DNA of 64,000 nucleotides, taken from assembly GCA_951406725.2 (NCBI GenBank), contig OX597823.1, positions 116,994,001 to 117,058,000 of the forward strand, written 5' to 3'. Both the position numbers and the translations under genes were made by a program. The notes under the pieces are model-generated. The model did not search any database and was not told the DNA's origin. It worked only from the letters and a program-made list of their open reading frames with translations. The DNA is from Octopus vulgaris. Its lineage: Eukaryota. This document shows positions 6,179 through 63,810 of this stretch, one piece after another; positions within the stretch are counted from its first letter, which is position 1; each line of letters begins with the position of its first letter.

Positions 6179-6434
6179 CATACACACAGGTATGTCACAT
6201 TTTCAGTTTGTTGTCTTTTTATTTCATCCTGAATATGTGTGTGTGTGTATAGACAAAAACAGGTGTAGGAACAACAAGCAGGTATATTAGTTTAACTCTC
6301 AGAAAGAATGGAAAAGTCTTTTACGTTTTGCACCTACACTGTTTGAAAGAAAGGAGAGAGAATGAAATAGAATAGAGAGAGAAAAAAAAATGTGTGTGTG
6401 TATATATGTATATATATATTTATTTTATAGAAGG

Positions 6435-6485
6435 AGCTTCTACAGGACTAGAACTGTTTCATTCAAATGAAATCATCAGGAAGCT
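6435..6485 (-). ncRNA. Type I hammerhead ribozyme
   Basis: AGCTTC-CTGATGA-t ttc attt gaa t-GAAA-CAG ttctagtc CTG-TA-GAAGCT; stems I and III pair fully. Confidence 0.75.
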
Positions 6486-6676
6486 TGCTGTCAAAATAAG
6501 TTTTGGCATTTATACATTTAGGCAGGTTTAATGGGGTGGTGGTGGGGGACATTTTTGGGGTAAGCAGGGCACAAACTGTCTTTCTTAGGGGAGTGGTCAA
6601 AAGGATCAGTGATAAAGTAAATAAATGAATAAATAGAATAATAGAATAGAGTTTTAGGTAAATAAGAAGACTATCG

Positions 6677-6722
<46 letters not shown>

Positions 6723-7319
6723 CATATATATATATATACACACATGTGCATGTATGTATATATGTGTGTAGGTATGTATATGTAGGTATGCTTTTATGCA
6801 CACGTGTATGCATGCATGTGTGCATGTATGTATTTATAAGCGTATGAGTGCGTATATATGCGTATGTATGTTTATATGCACGTATGTCAGTATATAGGCA
6901 TATGCGTTTATATATGCGGGCAGACATTTATGTGTGTTTATGTGTACTGAAGTACGTTTATATATGTGGTTTTGTGTGTACATAGTTATGTATACGTTTA
7001 TGTGAAAGTGGGTACATTTATGTATGTATGCATATGTGTACCTGTGTGTGTATATGTATGTGTATACATATATGCACACATGCACGCATACCCGTGTACA
7101 TAAAAGCATACCTACATATACATACCTACACACATATATACATACATGCACGTACGTACACATACGTACACGTAGAGAGAGAGATACATACATAAGTATG
7201 AGTGGATGAGAAGGAAATGAGTGAGAGAACATGCGTGTTTGTGTATGTGTATGAGTGTGCGTGTGAGTGTTGGCATCCGTGGGTCAAGAGATAGAAAGGA
7301 AGGGAGAGGGGAGCGGTAG

Positions 7320-7455
7320 ATGGATTTCATTTAGACCTGCTGGAACCCTGGGGAGTTCTAAGAACTTTTAGCGTTTGTCTAATCTAGCGCCACTGAATGT
7401 GTGTGGGTGGGTAGATAGGTCATACATTATACCTTTTATGATTCTGAAGCCGGTC
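7320..7455 (-). pseudogene. Decayed Penelope GIY-YIG endonuclease C-terminus
   Basis: FSGARLDKR*KFLELPRVPAGLNEI resembles the PLE 'R..E..(W/L)I..L.T..P.GLN' motif. Confidence 0.55.
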
Positions 7456-7499
7456 AAAATAAAAATAAAAATAAAAATAAAATAAGGGAGGAAGATGAG

Positions 7500-7550
7500 G
7501 AGAGAAAAAATATATATATGTGTGTATATATATATGTGTATATATGTATG

Positions 7551-7581
<31 letters not shown>

Positions 7582-7897
7582 ATATATATATATATGTATA
7601 TATGTGTGTGTTTGTATGTATGTGTATATGTATGTGTGTGTATATATGTATATATATATATATGTGTGTGTATATATATGTGTGTATATATGTATATAAT
7701 GTGTATGTATGTGTATGTATATATACATATATATATATGTGTGTGTGTGTATGTATGTGTATATTTATTTATATATGTGTGCGTGTGTTTGCGTGTTGGC
7801 ATGTATGTGTATGTGTATTTGTATATATGTGTGTATGTATATATATGTGTGTGTGTGTATGTATGTGTATGTGTGTGTATGTATGTGTATGTATATG

Positions 7898-7941
<44 letters not shown>
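7500..7941. repeat. (TA)/(TG) microsatellite field
   Basis: Directly visible. Confidence 0.95.
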
Positions 7942-7945
<4 letters not shown>

Positions 7946-8136
7946 TGATAGTCTTCTTATTTACCTAAAACTCTATTCTATTATTCTATTTATTCATTTA
8001 TTTACTTTATCACTGATTCTTTTGACCACTCCCCTAAGAAAGACAGTTTGTGCCCTGCTTACCCAAAAAATGTCCCCCACCACCACCCCATTAAACCTGC
8101 CTAAATGTATAAATGCCAAAACTATTCTTGACACCA

Positions 8137-8187
8137 AGCTTCCTGATGATTTCTCTTGAATGAAACAGTTCTAGTCCTGTAGAAGCT
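8137..8187 (+). ncRNA. Type I hammerhead ribozyme
   Basis: Stem I AGCTTC/GAAGCT; CTGATGA 8143-8149; stem II ttc/gaa (T-T mismatch at its base); GAAA 8162-8165; stem III CAG/CTG; predicted GUA cleavage after 8181. Confidence 0.78.
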
Positions 8188-8269
8188 CCTTCTATAAAAT
8201 AAATTAATTTACTCTGCTATGTATTGAGTACCTTATTTACTGTGGTTAACCCCGACTCAACCCGGGACC

Positions 8270-8309
<40 letters not shown>

Positions 8310-9554: not shown

Positions 9555-9885
9555 TATTATTAAAATTATAATTAAGGGTATCTAAACGATACCATCATGC
9601 TAGATATAGCAGTCAAAACCTGACTCTAAAACCACATCAAATATTCATACAGCACCAGGAGAGAAGGCATAGAGACAAAATAAACTAACAAAAAATAATT
9701 TTTTTGCCAGTCTATTTTGTGGCTTAGAGTCAAGTTTTGACTGCTATATCTAGCATGATGGTATTGTTTAGATACCCATAATTATAATTTTAGTAATAAT
9801 TATTACCGTTGAAGGTTTTTATTCCCATGCTAGCCACTTGATATGATCGATATTTTTATTAACGATCATATCCTTTTTTATATGA
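9555..9885. mobile_element. Asymmetric inverted-repeat element in (TA)n (arms 9555-9636 / 9718-9798, tail 9799-9885)
   Basis: Arms are reverse complements with few mismatches; TA tracts on both sides. Confidence 0.75.
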
Positions 9886-15180: not shown

Positions 15181-15238
15181 TGAATCATATATAAAAGCAA
15201 AAACAAAAAAAAACAGTGTATATTTATATATATATATA

Positions 15239-15396
15239 AAAATAATATGTTACAATTATTCAATAGTCAAGATAAAACTCTGAGTTTTATCTTGACTATT
15301 GAATAATTGTAACATATTATTTTATAGATAAATTTCCTCTATTTACATAATATTGAGGTCTCTTTCTTTCATTTGTTATCTTACCGTTTTTACCAA
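15239..15396. mobile_element. Perfect 42-bp-arm palindrome plus one-sided tail in (TA)n
   Basis: 15239-15280 is the reverse complement of 15282-15323 with a 1-nt spacer; tail 15324-15396. Confidence 0.8.
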
Positions 15397-30854: not shown

Positions 30855-31154
30855 TCAAGGTACAGTTTCGTTTTTGGATTTGGTTTGCAAGATTCTTTAT
30901 GTGAATTCGTGTATTGAAGCATATTCTGTGGTTCTGGGCAGAGTCATTTTCTTTTTGTGCCTTATAATTTAACACACTCACCGGTCAACTTTCCACTTAT
31001 TCCTTATTGAGAGTCAAAACTATTGAAAAGGTTGCAAGATGCAACGAAAATTTTAGGAAAATAAAAATAAGGAATATGTGGAAATTTTAACGGTAAGTGT
31101 GTTACATTATAAGACACAAAAAGAAAATGACTCTCCCCAGACACAACAGAATAT
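30855..31154. mobile_element. Asymmetric inverted-repeat element (arms 30921-31008 / 31066-31154, tail ~30855-30920) with a degenerate hammerhead in the spacer
   Basis: Arms are diverged reverse complements; spacer reads cta-TTGAAAA-g gttgc aagat gcaac-GAAA-attt-tag; left boundary of the tail is approximate. Confidence 0.65.
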
Positions 31155-40755: not shown

Positions 40756-40965
40756 ATATATTCTTTCAGTGCCTTGACTGTGGCCAAGCTGAAGCACCAC
40801 CTTTAGTTGAACAAATTGATCCCAGGACTTATTCTTTGTAAGCCTAGTACTTATTCTATCAGTCTTTTTTTTGTGGAACCACTAAGTTATAGAAATGTTG
40901 GTGTGTTTACACTAACATCAGTTGTCAAGCAAAGGGGCAGGGGGAAAAAACAGACACACACAAAC

Positions 40966-41006
<41 letters not shown>

Positions 41007-43710: not shown

Positions 43711-43715
<5 letters not shown>

Positions 43716-44272
43716 ACTTATAAGTAAGGGCTAAAGAAAAATTATTTCAAAGCCAATAAGCTGATAACAGACTATTAAATCGTCAATTTCCACATATAAT
43801 CTACTCGCTACAGCAAAAATCGAACTGAAGTCGGGCAAACTGGCCATTAGAATATTTAAATTTCATTAGATATAACTGGGGTACTTAAATGTACTCATGT
43901 TTTTTGCTTCGGCTTTTTCCATGGGCGCATGTAAGTATCTTATTTATATTCTCTCGTAAGCTCTACTGAAGACGAATAAATCTTTTATGAAATTAATTCC
44001 GAAATTGATTCAATATAGAAATAACGAAATTTAAATAGTCTAATGGCCAGTTTGCCTGACTTCAGTTCGATTTTTGCTGTAGCGAGTAGATTATATGTGG
44101 AAATTGACGATTTAATAGTCTGTTAACAGCATATTGGCTTTGAAATAATTTTTCTTTAGCCCTTACTTATAAGTTGTTTATAATTTTAACCGTAAAGGTA
44201 TTTTAATATGCTGCCACATTTCTTGATGGAATTTTTTTCTGTAGAAGAAAAAACTTCATCCTATATTAGTAG
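43711..44272. mobile_element. Asymmetric inverted-repeat element in (TA)n (arms 43711-43868 / 44022-44179, tail 44180-44272)
   Basis: 158-bp arms, near-perfect reverse complements; hammerhead in the spacer. Confidence 0.82.
43962..44019 (+). ncRNA. Type I hammerhead ribozyme
   Basis: TCTA-CTGAAGA-c gaat..attc c-GAAA-TTG att CAA-TA-TAGA; predicted AUA cleavage after 44015; C-C mismatch at the base of stem II. Confidence 0.65.
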
Positions 44273-58109: not shown

Positions 58110-58603
58110 TAGGCTGTCTCCCTTTAATTTTTAGGCTGTCTCCCTTTATTTTTTAGGCTGTCTCCCTTTATTTTTTTAGGCTGTCTCCCTTTTTTTTTAG
58201 GCTGTCCCCCTTTTTTTAGGCTGTCTCCCTTTATTTTTTTAGGCTGTCCCCCTTTTTTTTAGGCTGTCTCCCTTTTTTTTTTAGGCTGTCTCCCTTTTTT
58301 TTAGGGTGTCTCCCTTTTTTTAGGCTGTCCCCCTTTTTTTTTTAGGCTGTCTCCCTTTTTTTTAGACTGTCCCCCTTTTTTTAGGCTGTCTCCCTTTTTT
58401 TTTAGGCTGTCTCCCTTTTTTTTAGGCTGTCTCCCTTTTTTTAGGCTGTCCCCCTTTTTTTAGGTTGTCTCCCTTTTTTTTAGGCTGTCTCCCTTTTTTT
58501 TAGGCTGTCTCCCTTTATTTTTAGGCTGTCTCCCTTTATTTTTTAGGCTGTCTCCCTTTATTTTTTTAGGCTGTCTCCCTTTTTTTTTTTAGGCTGTCTC
58601 CCC
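58110..58603. repeat. Minisatellite taggctgtctccc(T)n, about 23 units of ~20-24 bp
   Basis: Directly visible. Confidence 0.95.
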
Positions 58604-59484: not shown

Positions 59485-60078
59485 CACAGGTGTGGCTGTG
59501 TTGTGTGGTTAAGAAACTTGCTTCCTATCCATGTGGTCTCGGGTTCAGTGCCACTGCATGACACCCTGGCAAGTGTCTTCTACAACAGCCTCAAGCTGAC
59601 CAAAGCCTTAGGAGTTGATTTGGTACATGGAAACCAAAAGAAGCAGTGAGCTGGCAGAAACGTTAGCATGCCGGGCGAAATGCGTAGCCGTATTTCATCT
59701 GTCATTACGTTCTGAGTTCAAATTCCGCTGAGTCAACTTTGCCTTTCATCCTTTCGGGGTCGATAAATTAAGGATCAGTTATGCACTGGGGTCGATATAA
59801 TTGACTTAATCCATTTGTCTGTCCTTGTTTGTTCTTTCTGTGTTTAGCCCCTTGTGGGTAGTAAAGAAATAGGTAATTCATCTGCCATTATGTTCCGAGT
59901 TCAAATTCCGCCGAGGTCAACTTTGCCTTTCATCCATTCAGGGTCGATAAATTAAGTACCAGTTATGCACTGGGGGCCGATGTAATTGACTTAGTCCCTT
60001 TGTCTGTCCTTGTTTGTCCCCTCTATGTTTAGCCCCTTGTGGGCAATAAAGAAATAAGGAAACTGAAAGAAGCCCAAG
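59485..60078 (+). mobile_element. CORE-like SINE head with nested Nin/Deu SINE (59644-60057, internally duplicated)
   Basis: Imperfect 15-bp TSD: ggaaaccaaaagaag 59629 / ggaaactgaaagaag 60058. Confidence 0.8.
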
Positions 60079-60190
60079 ATATATATATATATATATAAAA
60101 TATTATTAGAGACAAAACCACTATTTTGCAAAACAAACAAGGAAAGACTTAATCAATACATAAAATTTTAATAAATAGTCAAAAAAACCG

Positions 60191-60233
60191 CCACTACAAT
60201 TGTTTCTTGTCTTGATCGACAATCTTCAGGTGG
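60191..60233 (-). ncRNA. Minimal type I hammerhead ribozyme
   Basis: CCAC-CTGAAGA-TTGTC gatcaa GACAA-GAAA-C aatt G-TA-GTGG. Confidence 0.88.
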
Positions 60234-60846
60234 ACTTCCAATCTAAAATATCAATATTTTAAAATATAAAAATAATAATTTTAAAATAATTAAAGTATGA
60301 ATGAAAAAATATAAATATATAATCCATATATAACATATATATAATCCATATATAATCAATATATAAACAATATATAAACTAAAATAAACCTATCAACAAT
60401 TAAATATAAAATATAAAATATAAAATATAAAATATAAAACAAAAGAAAATAATAATAATATAATAATAAACTATATATACACCCATACACATATACCTAA
60501 TTATATATAACCATATCTAACTACATACACTAAATCACACACCTATATATATATATCCCTATACATACACATAAAAACGTCTAGGCAACTATAAATAAAT
60601 AAAATAGCTAAATACTTCAACACAAAACTTATTCATACTCCCACACACACACACATACAACCCACATTCACGCTCTAGAAAACGGACATCACTTAAAATT
60701 ATGAACGGAGAAATGGAATAAATGGAATTAAAAATTTTATTCACTTGGTAAAACGAACACTACTTAAAAATTATGAATGAAACAATGCAATAAAACAACA
60801 GACATCGCAAATAGACACAAATTACTACGAATTCCTTAACAAACCT

Positions 60847-61526
60847 ACCATGATAAACCAAAACTCATAAAAACATATAATGATAAAATCTCCCTTTACT
60901 AAACTCTATAACATACCTATATAGCAATCCCCCTAACCTAAACATTCACACACAAATACACACACATAAACCACACACCCACGACATATACAAATACCCA
61001 CACCACTTACACATACCTATATATACATATAAACCTCAACATATACTCCAAAAACCCACTCAACCCCACACAGACAAATAAACACAAAAATTATGAATGG
61101 ATTCTTTTATAAAACTACCATGATAAGCTAAAACTCACAAAACATAAATGATAAAACATCCCTTAACTAAACACTATAACATACTTATATAGCAATCCCT
61201 TTAACCTATACATTCACACACAAATACACACACGTAAACCACACACCCATAACAAATACAAACACCCACCCCACTCACACACACCCACAAGTACATATAA
61301 GCCTCAACATATACACCAAACAAAATTACTTTACCAAACCATGATAAGCTAAAACTCACAAAACATAAATGATAAAACATCCCTTAACTAAACACTATAA
61401 CATACTTATATAGCAATCCCTTTAACCTATACATTCACACACAAATACACACACGTAAACCACACACCCATAACAAATACTAACACCCACCCCACTCACA
61501 CACACCCACAAGTACATATAAGCCTC
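60847..61526. repeat. Three ~190-205-bp direct repeats inside the PLE-like spacer
   Basis: Units start 'accatgataa' at ~60847, ~61117 and ~61338. Confidence 0.85.
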
Positions 61527-61839
61527 ATAGGTGTGTGATTTAGTGTATGTAGTTAGATATGGTTATATATAATTAGGTATATGTGTATGGGTGTATATAT
61601 AGTTTATTATTATATTATTATTATTTTCTTTTGTTTTATATTTTATATTTTATATTTTATATTTTATATTTAATTGTTGATAGGTTTATTTTAGTTTATA
61701 TATTGTTTATATATTGATTATATATGGATTATATATATGTTATATATGGATTATATATTTATATTTTTTCATTCATACTTTAATTATTTTAAAATTATTA
61801 TTTTTATATTTTAAAATATTGATATTTTAGATTGGAAGT

Positions 61840-61882
61840 CCACCTGAAGATTGTCGATCAAGACAAGAAACAATTGTAGTGG
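61840..61882 (+). ncRNA. Minimal type I hammerhead ribozyme
   Basis: Stem I CCAC/GTGG; CTGAAGA 61844-61850; 5-bp stem II; GAAA 61867-61870; C-AATT-G; predicted GUA cleavage after 61878. Confidence 0.88.
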
Positions 61883-62057
61883 CGGTTTTTTTGACTATTT
61901 ATTAAAATTTTATGTATTGATTAAGTCTTTCCTTGTTTGTTTTGCAAAATAGTGGTTTTGTCTCTAATAATATTTTATAATATTTTACTATAAAATTGGA
62001 TTTAATCCTAAATCTGATTTTTTCCCTGTAAATTTGGATTTATTCCCTAATATTTAT

Positions 62058-62113
<56 letters not shown>

Positions 62114-62929: not shown

Positions 62930-63450
62930 AGAAGAGGAGAGGTTGCCAAATAAGCCAAACTTGCTATCTTCACTTCAGTTTTTGTGTCTGTCCTCACCAC
63001 TGCTGATAAACATCGGGTAATGACTGAAAGAGTACAATCACAAATACATGTATCAAAAAGCTGGTTACCCCGAAGGAGCTTTAGAGAATGTTACTCAACA
63101 GAGTGCATAGCTCAGAAATCGTGGGTTTTTCTTTAGTTCAAACCATTAATTCTCCACAATGAGAAATTACAGCTCATGTACAGTGCTATGGACATGTGGT
63201 TAGAATATCACAAGAAATAATCACAAGATAGATTCTTCAAGCCAAACCACCTGAAAGGAGATCCATGTAGGGGCAGACTAAAAATGAAGTGATTTAATAA
63301 TATCCATAACCTCAGTTGATCAAGCTTGTGAATCCAGCTTGAAAGTCTTATGATGGTTGCTTCTGACAGGACCCAATGGAAGAGGTACCTGAGGACTGTA
63401 CTCCAATGAACCTCTCAGGAATAGTGAGTGGGTGGGGAAGATGGATGGAG
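62930..63450 (+). pseudogene. RTE (Rex3/Expander-like) LINE 3' fragment
   Basis: KLAIFTSVFVSVLT..VMTERVQSQI resembles KLSIY.SI.VP.LTYG.E.WVMTER.RSRIQ. Confidence 0.65.
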
Positions 63451-63589: not shown

Positions 63590-63810
63590 ATGGTGGGAAG
63601 CTGGCAGAGTCATTAGGATGCTGTGCAAAATGCTTGGCAGCATTTCATCCATTTTCATGTTCTGAGTTCAAATTCGGCCAAGGTCGACATTGCTGTTTTA
63701 TCGTTTCAGGGTCGATAAAATAAATACCATTTGGACACTGGACTTGATGTAATCGACTTAAACTCCCGCCTCCGAAATTGCTGGCCTTGTGCCAAAATTT
63801 GAAAGCAATA
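63590..63810 (+). mobile_element. Nin/Deu-domain SINE
   Basis: Family core. Confidence 0.8.

What the first reader, a model, noticed from the sequence alone, without database searches (positions are those of the whole stretch)
60096..62062. Very young element with two textbook minimal hammerheads on opposite strands
Seen: ~450-bp arms that are almost identical (only small A/TAA-run differences noticed), each with CCAC-CUGAAGA-[5-bp stem]-GAAA-C-AAUU-G-UA-GUGG. Established: a very short stem III capped by a palindromic tetraloop is the PLE-type minimal hammerhead, reported to cleave as a dimer. Inference: a recent insertion from an active family. Transcription in either direction gives one sense ribozyme and its antisense, so the RNA could switch between self-cleavage and a ~450-bp duplex.
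Basis: partly seen in the sequence, partly recalled or inferred. Interest (0 to 1): 0.75.

Follow-up and report, generated by a model that had tools for sequence, protein, structure and literature searches.

The report
Young Penelope-type insertion, mirrored hammerhead ends
This 1.97-kb stretch has two identical 453-base arms that face apart, each with a small hammerhead ribozyme motif, and is likely an ordinary young, gene-less insertion of a Penelope-like jumping element, whose mirrored layout is a known by-product of insertion and is predicted to silence the ribozymes rather than switch them.

Summary
The motif is real. The arms 60094-60546 and 61527-61979 match at 453 of 453 bases. Each carries an outward-facing type I hammerhead (predicted cuts after 61878 on +, 60195 on -). 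An 81-nt tail follows the right arm only, (TA)n flanks both ends, and there is no ORF. This is the published layout of Penelope-like element (PLE) insertions: inverted truncated copy, one-sided tail, (TA)n target. Opposite-strand hammerhead pairs were reported in 2014. Four unrelated structures in this window share the layout, one with its own hammerhead pair. The ribozyme is not the 'textbook' form: it lacks G10.1-C11.1 and resembles Hydra-clade PLE hammerheads. The switch idea fails on geometry. Read-through in either direction makes the antisense arm first, and folding then leaves the hammerhead helices unformed. Cleavage, covariation among copies and the master element are untested. Small novelties: tails of 62-93 nt against a published 30-40, and a long non-coding body. 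The host looks like a cephalopod (recalled repeat signatures, not tested). The scan noted similar PLE palindromes before, in shark-like DNA. Verdict: new member of a known kind, low interest.

The parts
60079..60097 (.). Left (TA)n target tract; overlaps the arm end by about 4 nt, so the exact boundary is blurred
60094..60546 (-). Left arm: 3' end of the long copy (reads on -), ends without a tail
   Evidence: 453/453 complementary to the right arm
60191..60233 (-). Type I hammerhead motif, left copy; core starts at 60229, predicted cut at 60195
60547..61526 (-). Non-coding interior; same A/C skew as the left arm, so likely the upstream part of the long copy; longest stop-free frame 64 codons
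   Evidence: no match elsewhere in the window
60849..61527 (.). Tandem units inside the interior: an older 268-nt unit (78-84% alike) and two young 221-nt-period units (1 mismatch in 190); no hammerhead in them
61527..61527 (.). Head-to-head junction of the two truncated copies; 1-nt overlap; the inverted copy starts inside the element's own (TA)6 run
61527..61979 (+). Right arm: inverted, 5'-truncated copy of the element's 3' end
61840..61882 (+). Type I hammerhead motif, right copy; core 61844-61850, helix II 61851-61866, palindromic helix III 61870-61877, predicted cut after 61878
61980..62060 (+). 81-nt one-sided tail with a predicted 13-bp hairpin (z -2.1; 5 of 200 shuffles fold as well)
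62061..62113 (.). Right (TA)n/(TGTA)n target tract

Best explanation
The stretch is likely a young, ORF-less insertion made by a Penelope-like element's reverse transcriptase/endonuclease working in trans: two truncated copies of one hammerhead-bearing 3' end sit head-to-head inside a (TA)n tract. Shown: identical arms, outward hammerheads, a one-sided 81-nt tail, (TA)n on both sides, no ORF. Inferred: the enzyme nicked both strands of the (TA)n target and primed two cDNAs from two start sites, 101 and about 182 nt past the ribozyme cut site. One ran 1434 nt and the other about 534 nt, and their ends were joined at 61527. The tail is the gap between the two start sites. The hammerhead would act, if at all, as a dimer or with protein help in the family's tandem same-strand precursor RNA, not here. 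At this locus read-through RNA is predicted to fold into a 453-bp hairpin that blocks the ribozyme. The body may be a non-autonomous derivative (about 60%) or the long 3' UTR of a truncated autonomous element (about 40%). The hammerhead style and (TA)n target point to a Hydra-like driver, unproven.
For: Anatomy. Published layout: inverted 5'-truncated copy, tail at one end and (TA)n bias (Craig 2021, PMC8557442, passages); head-to-head is the commonest inverted form, and pLTRs alone mobilise non-coding or host DNA in trans (Arkhipova 2013, PMC3846280, passages and Discussion); 'dual min-HHRs... in opposite strands' (Cervera 2014, PMC4209133); Repbase Penelope-13_HM carries a hammerhead on each strand (Craig supplement). 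Mechanism: a PLE protein cuts and extends both strands, and the tail lies between two RT start sites (Frangieh 2024, PMC11167929, parts 1-2 of 4). In-window control: of 23 inverted pairs listed, 7 are >=90% identical, 2 of those are microsatellite tracts, and the other 5 all have (TA)n at one arm and a 62-93-nt tail then (TA)n at the other. Hammerhead style: helix II starts with a pyrimidine in 19 of 25 Hydra-clade families, and all 25 have AC..GU helix III (counted by eye). By contrast 51 of 56 general PLE hammerheads start helix II with G (counted by eye).
Against: No RT or GIY-YIG sequence is linked to it: none in the element, and no Pfam hit above a curated cut-off in 93 frames of the window. 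No relative was found to test stems: 0 of 20 viral and 0 of 34 metagenome pattern hits form both helices. The tail (81 nt) is about twice the published 30-40 bp. No target-site duplication can be read inside (TA)n. The monomer hammerhead fold is rare even without the antisense arm (helix I P 0.003). The dimer energy gain is no better than shuffles (143 of 300). The octopus Hydra-1_oBim hammerhead is a different sequence, and 3 of 4 short motif probes gave no hit in the Craig supplement; the fourth hit an unrelated GC-rich sequence. The junction was not checked in independent reads.
Confidence: 0.85

Rival explanations
1. The whole ORF-less palindrome is itself the mobile unit, a foldback or MITE-like element copied with both arms.
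For: Perfect long inverted arms, no ORF and TA flanks. Runs hold up to 0.80 of the words, so interior and arm are both repeated.
Against: An 81-nt tail lies outside the right arm, so the inverted repeats are not terminal. The four other structures have arms of 53-327 nt and spacers of 0-1131 nt, as expected from variable truncation. Hammerheads sit near the ends, as in PLEs.
Confidence: 0.06
2. The arms are identical because of an assembly error or later gene conversion, so the element is not as young as it looks.
For: 0 differences in 453 AT-rich bases and a near-exact 221-nt duplicate nearby. Craig 2021 notes such structures trouble assemblies. The junction was not seen in independent reads.
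Against: One-sided tail, (TA)n on both sides and a 1-nt junction match a biological pattern that recurs in the window at 91-97% arm identity. A fold-back read error would not add a tail (inference).
Confidence: 0.05
3. One reading: the locus works as a selected RNA switch between ribozyme cleavage and a 450-bp duplex.
For: Intact cores on both strands. Arkhipova 2013 raises bidirectional pLTR promoters. A transcript starting inside the element would carry a free sense hammerhead.
Against: The antisense arm is always made first on read-through, and the duplex wins completely. One hammerhead per transcript cannot dimerise in cis. The PAc hammerhead needs protein and is not needed for insertion in vitro. 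The layout recurs in unrelated insertions, some with one hammerhead or none detected.
Confidence: 0.03

Closest known systems
Endonuclease-positive PLE insertions with inverted pLTR and tail (Craig 2021 PMC8557442 Fig. 2; Arkhipova 2013 PMC3846280; Goubert 2022 PMC8969392)
   Same: Inverted 5'-truncated copy joined head-to-head, tail at one end only, microsatellite target, hammerhead near the 3' end.
   Different: No ORF in this copy; tail 81 nt against 30-40 bp; at least 1.2 kb of non-coding sequence with tandem units upstream of the hammerhead.
Hydra-clade PLEs (Craig 2021, Files S1-S2), e.g. Penelope-13_HM, Penelope-2_NV, Hydra-1_oBim
   Same: (TA)n target; CUGAnGAU core, pyrimidine-starting helix II, AC..GU helix III; Penelope-13_HM has a hammerhead on each strand; Penelope-2_NV has the same helix III halves and cut base.
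   Different: No RT/EN to place it. Hydra elements are under 3 kb with a single ORF, while this has a long non-coding body. Helix III here is a loopless 8-nt palindrome. The Hydra-1_oBim hammerhead is a different sequence.
Minimal hammerheads of metazoan PLEs (Cervera and De la Pena 2014, PMC4209133)
   Same: Type I, short helix I, palindromic helix III, AU-rich flanks; pairs on opposite strands 100-700 bp apart already reported.
   Different: Lacks the consensus G10.1-C11.1 pair (U-A here; 2 of 56 aligned examples by my count); the two cores are 1.6 kb apart.
Non-LTR retrozymes (Cervera 2020 PMC7229834; Li 2026 bioRxiv 10.64898/2026.07.22.740005)
   Same: Non-coding, hammerhead-bearing, AT-rich, PLE-related.
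   Different: Retrozymes are same-strand tandems with a hammerhead in each unit. Here the 221-nt tandem has no hammerhead and the two hammerheads are on opposite strands.

Membership tests
Autonomous EN+ Penelope-like element | RT plus GIY-YIG ORF in this copy | tested here: not met
   Longest stop-free frame 64 codons; so not filed as an autonomous PLE
Autonomous EN+ Penelope-like element | RT-EN ORF joined to this 3' end in a master copy elsewhere in the genome | not testable with these tools
   No genome held
PLE-type truncated/inverted insertion | Inverted 5'-truncated copy joined head-to-head | tested here: met
PLE-type truncated/inverted insertion | Tail extension at one end only | tested here: met
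   81 nt, right end only; longer than the published 30-40 bp
PLE-type truncated/inverted insertion | Type I hammerhead near the 3' end of each repeat | tested here: met
   Cut site 101 nt from the arm end
PLE-type truncated/inverted insertion | Target-site duplication | tested here: inconclusive
   None outside the (TA)n tracts; Craig 2021 says microsatellite targets hide it
Hydra clade | (TA)n target | tested here: met
   shared with Neptune and Naiad, so not diagnostic
Hydra clade | Hammerhead layout as in File S2 | tested here: met
   Compared by eye with 25 families; Neptune hammerheads are not in that table
Hydra clade | RT phylogeny; C-terminal GIY-YIG without CCHH | not testable with these tools
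   No ORF, no genome
Minimal PLE hammerhead (Cervera 2014 consensus) | CUGANGA and GAAA core, NUH site, palindromic helix III | tested here: met
Minimal PLE hammerhead (Cervera 2014 consensus) | G10.1-C11.1 pair closing helix II after an unpaired base | tested here: not met
   U-A here; consensus
Minimal PLE hammerhead (Cervera 2014 consensus) | Stem covariation among copies | not tested
   No copies obtained
Minimal PLE hammerhead (Cervera 2014 consensus) | Self-cleavage as a dimer | not testable with these tools
   Predicted dimer geometry only; energy gain equal to shuffles
Non-LTR retrozyme | Same-strand tandem units, each with a hammerhead | tested here: not met
MITE / TIR DNA transposon | Inverted repeats at both extreme ends | tested here: not met
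   81-nt tail outside the right arm

The most novel reading that the evidence does not exclude
A still-active, non-autonomous family of Hydra-like, (TA)n-seeking PLE derivatives with long (60-90 nt) tails builds a fresh perfect hairpin at each insertion by priming two cDNAs and joining them head-to-head. At about five such structures per 64 kb, these would be a major, self-renewing source of long double-stranded RNA for ADAR editing and small-RNA silencing in a cephalopod genome, and copy junctions would map the two RT start sites in vivo.
Probability: 0.2. Interest if true: 0.5.

Novelty: new member of a known kind. Interest (0 to 1): 0.2.

Why it matters
As a single locus it matters little: in Octopus vulgaris PLEs cover 6.83% of the genome in 190 families, and 31 families with 336 insertions count as recently active (PMC13282606, passages and supplement rows); that the host is an octopus is my untested guess. 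Its use is as a clean, undecayed specimen. How PLEs build inverted ends is still open (Craig 2021; Arkhipova 2013). A young family with two sharp end points and a long tail would let the two-start-site model, shown in vitro for one lizard element, be checked on genomic copies. Perfect AU-rich hairpins planted at this density could also feed RNA editing or silencing, if they are transcribed.

Tried and rejected
No whole genome is held, so copy number, empty site and master element could not be searched. Rfam: nothing at gathering score in the window; 6 weak matches, none a ribozyme, at E<=5. Pattern scans for related hammerheads: 0 of 20 viral hits and 0 of 34 metagenome hits form both helices, and none of the 54 loci matches the hammerhead-to-tail stretch by BLAST. 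No RNA holder listed. Pfam on 93 stop-free frames outside the element: 4 weak hits in 3 frames, all below cut-off, so no host gene and no RT was found and read-through is unproven. Dimer energy as evidence of selection: rejected, 143 of 300 shuffles do as well. Lunse 2017 is not held; its dimer claim is taken only from review passages (PMC6765202). Motif probes found no matching family in the Craig 2021 or Bonar 2026 supplements; line breaks in sequences could hide a match, file 1 of the Cervera supplement was not searched, and Repbase/Dfam were not available. Searches for a printed cephalopod hammerhead PLE with this layout; only Hydra-1_oBim and 235 Rfam hammerhead hits in giant squid turned up. 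(ADAR, endo-siRNA) were seen as listings only. Fold-back of one cDNA on itself was rejected as the sole mechanism: it cannot give the tail, which the long copy lacks. Earlier scan notes: nothing by sequence or place.

Full report
Observation. Each arm holds the motif as described: helix I CCAC/GUGG, core CUGAAGA (+61844, -60229), a 5-bp helix II, GAAA, C-AAUU-G and a GUA cut site at 61878 (+) and 60195 (-). A strict descriptor finds 6 hits in the window and 0 in 200 of 200 shuffles. Rfam does not score it.

Both ribozymes face outward. The left arm ends in (TA)n; the right arm runs on through an 81-nt tail, 61980-62060, before its (TA)n. The 980-nt interior has the left arm's A/C skew, no stop-free frame over 64 codons and a tandem of three related units, the two youngest differing at 1 of 190 bases. 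So the simplest reading is a 1434-nt copy on the minus strand and a copy of about 534 nt on the plus strand, joined head-to-head at 61527 with a 1-nt overlap. No target-site duplication is readable inside the microsatellite.

What it is. This is the published layout of PLE insertions. Craig 2021 (PMC8557442; passages, Introduction, supplement part 2 of 59) describes an inverted 5'-truncated copy, a 30-40-bp tail at one end and microsatellite bias. Arkhipova 2013 (PMC3846280; passages, Discussion) calls head-to-head the commonest inverted form and shows pLTRs carrying non-coding or host DNA in trans. Cervera 2014 (PMC4209133; parts 1-2 of 4, supplement parts 1-2 of 3) already reports dual minimal hammerheads on opposite strands and ties lone motifs to truncated PLEs. 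The Repbase consensus Penelope-13_HM has a hammerhead on each strand.

The window is its own control. Of 23 local inverted pairs listed, 7 are at least 90% identical and 2 of those are microsatellite tracts. The other 5 (the finding, 6418-8272, 9555-9885, 15228-15395, 43711-44272) each have (TA)n at one arm and a 62-93-nt tail followed by (TA)n at the other. About 12% of window positions lie within 110 nt of such a run. The 6418-8272 element has its own outward hammerhead pair (+8143, -6479), and 43711-44272 has one in its centre. None matches the finding's hammerhead-to-tail stretch. Arm lengths (53-453 nt) and spacers (0-1131 nt) vary, as truncation at each insertion predicts.

The ribozyme. 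It is not the textbook minimal form. The Cervera consensus has G10.1-C11.1; by my eye count 51 of 56 examples start helix II with G and 2 of 56 have U-A as here. It fits Hydra-clade hammerheads better: 19 of 25 families start helix II with a pyrimidine, all 25 have AC..GU helix III, and nearly all target (TA)n. That is a resemblance, not membership: there is no RT to place, Neptune motifs are not in that table, and the octopus Hydra-1_oBim motif is a different sequence. As a monomer the fold is rare (helix I P 0.003 in 61800-61930). Two copies fold at minimum energy into a double hammerhead (-24.0 against -16.8 kcal/mol for two monomers), but 143 of 300 shuffles gain as much, so this shows only that the geometry is possible. 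Published activity for such motifs is low even as dimers. The lizard PAc hammerhead needs protein and is dispensable for insertion in vitro (Frangieh 2024, PMC11167929, parts 1-2 of 4).

The switch. In either direction a read-through transcript makes the antisense arm first. Folding 60094-61900 pairs the core with that arm at P about 1.0 and leaves helices I and II at 0.0; the arm duplex is -660 kcal/mol against -6. These are equilibrium predictions, and local folding during transcription was not modelled. A transcript starting inside the element would escape the duplex but carries one hammerhead and would need a partner in trans. No host gene was found to drive read-through. I therefore expect a silent ribozyme in a long hairpin, not a switch.

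Mechanism (inferred). PAc protein cuts and extends both target strands, is predicted to be a dimer, and starts reverse transcription at two sites whose gap is the tail. Applied here: two nicks in (TA)n primed two cDNAs, from sites 101 and about 182 nt past the cut site, and their truncated ends were joined. Fold-back of one cDNA cannot supply the tail, which the long copy lacks. Arkhipova 2013 proposes self-priming on an antisense template instead; I cannot exclude it.

Age and copy number. With 0 of 453 differences the 95% upper bound on arm divergence is 0.0066, or about 0.9 million years at the octopus rate of 0.0036 per million years. This assumes a cephalopod host, which rests on recalled SINE and microsatellite signatures, and ignores gene conversion. 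20 of 24 listed runs, from 8 studies and 4 organism labels, hold at least half of 142 sampled words of 60547-62056, including runs of 21-45 million letters. Arm plus tail is only 35% of that stretch, so the interior is likely repeated too. In O. vulgaris PLEs cover 6.83% of the genome, with 31 recently active families (PMC13282606, passages and supplement rows).

Open points. Covariation, cleavage, the junction in independent reads, polymorphism and the master element are untested. Pattern scans gave no relatives (0 of 20 and 0 of 34). Curated repeat libraries were not available, so the family may already be named.

Verdict. Observation confirmed, interpretation partly supported. It works like a PLE truncated and inverted insertion (0.85) and is a new member of a known kind; interest 0.2. 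The modest new points are the long tails, the long non-coding body and the density of such hairpins. Two earlier notes of this scan describe similar PLE palindromes in shark-like DNA; one led me to the Arkhipova 2013 paper.

Noticed in passing
window 6418-8272: Second element with the same layout: arms about 327 nt at 95%, an outward hammerhead on each (+8143, -6479) differing only in loop II, microsatellite-like 1131-nt spacer, 68-nt tail, (TA)n flanks. Hydra-style motif, unrelated sequence.
   Followed up: partly
window 43711-44272: Arms 158 nt at 97%, one hammerhead at +43966 in the 153-nt centre, 93-nt tail, (TA)n on both sides.
   Followed up: partly
window 9555-9885 and 15228-15395: Stub insertions too short to reach a hammerhead: arms 89 and 53 nt, tails 87 and 62 nt, (TA)n flanks. 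The tails at 9799 and 44180 both begin with a small ACC-loop-GGT hairpin motif.
   Followed up: partly
window 6418, 9555, 15228, 43711, 60094: All five structures carry the tail on the right side (two-sided chance about 1 in 16). Unexplained; could reflect transcription or replication direction, or chance.
   Followed up: no
window 30921-31154: Older palindrome (77%) centred on a minimal hammerhead-like motif with the U3-A8 core variant at +31023.
   Followed up: partly
window 40593 (-) and 24527 (+): Lone type I hammerhead-like motifs with long helix II that share a short loop word; sequence downstream of 24527 matches 40960-40996 inverted (37 nt, 89%).
   Followed up: partly
window 63150-63420: Decayed coding-like stretch whose frame 2 resembles the C-terminus of an RTE-type LINE (motif recalled; not scanned in that frame).
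   Followed up: no
window 58110-58602: 20-nt minisatellite, about 24 copies, varying in T-run length.
   Followed up: no
window 59690-60056: Two head-to-tail 185-nt SINE-like units (88%) just left of the insertion; a third copy near 63600-63750.
   Followed up: no
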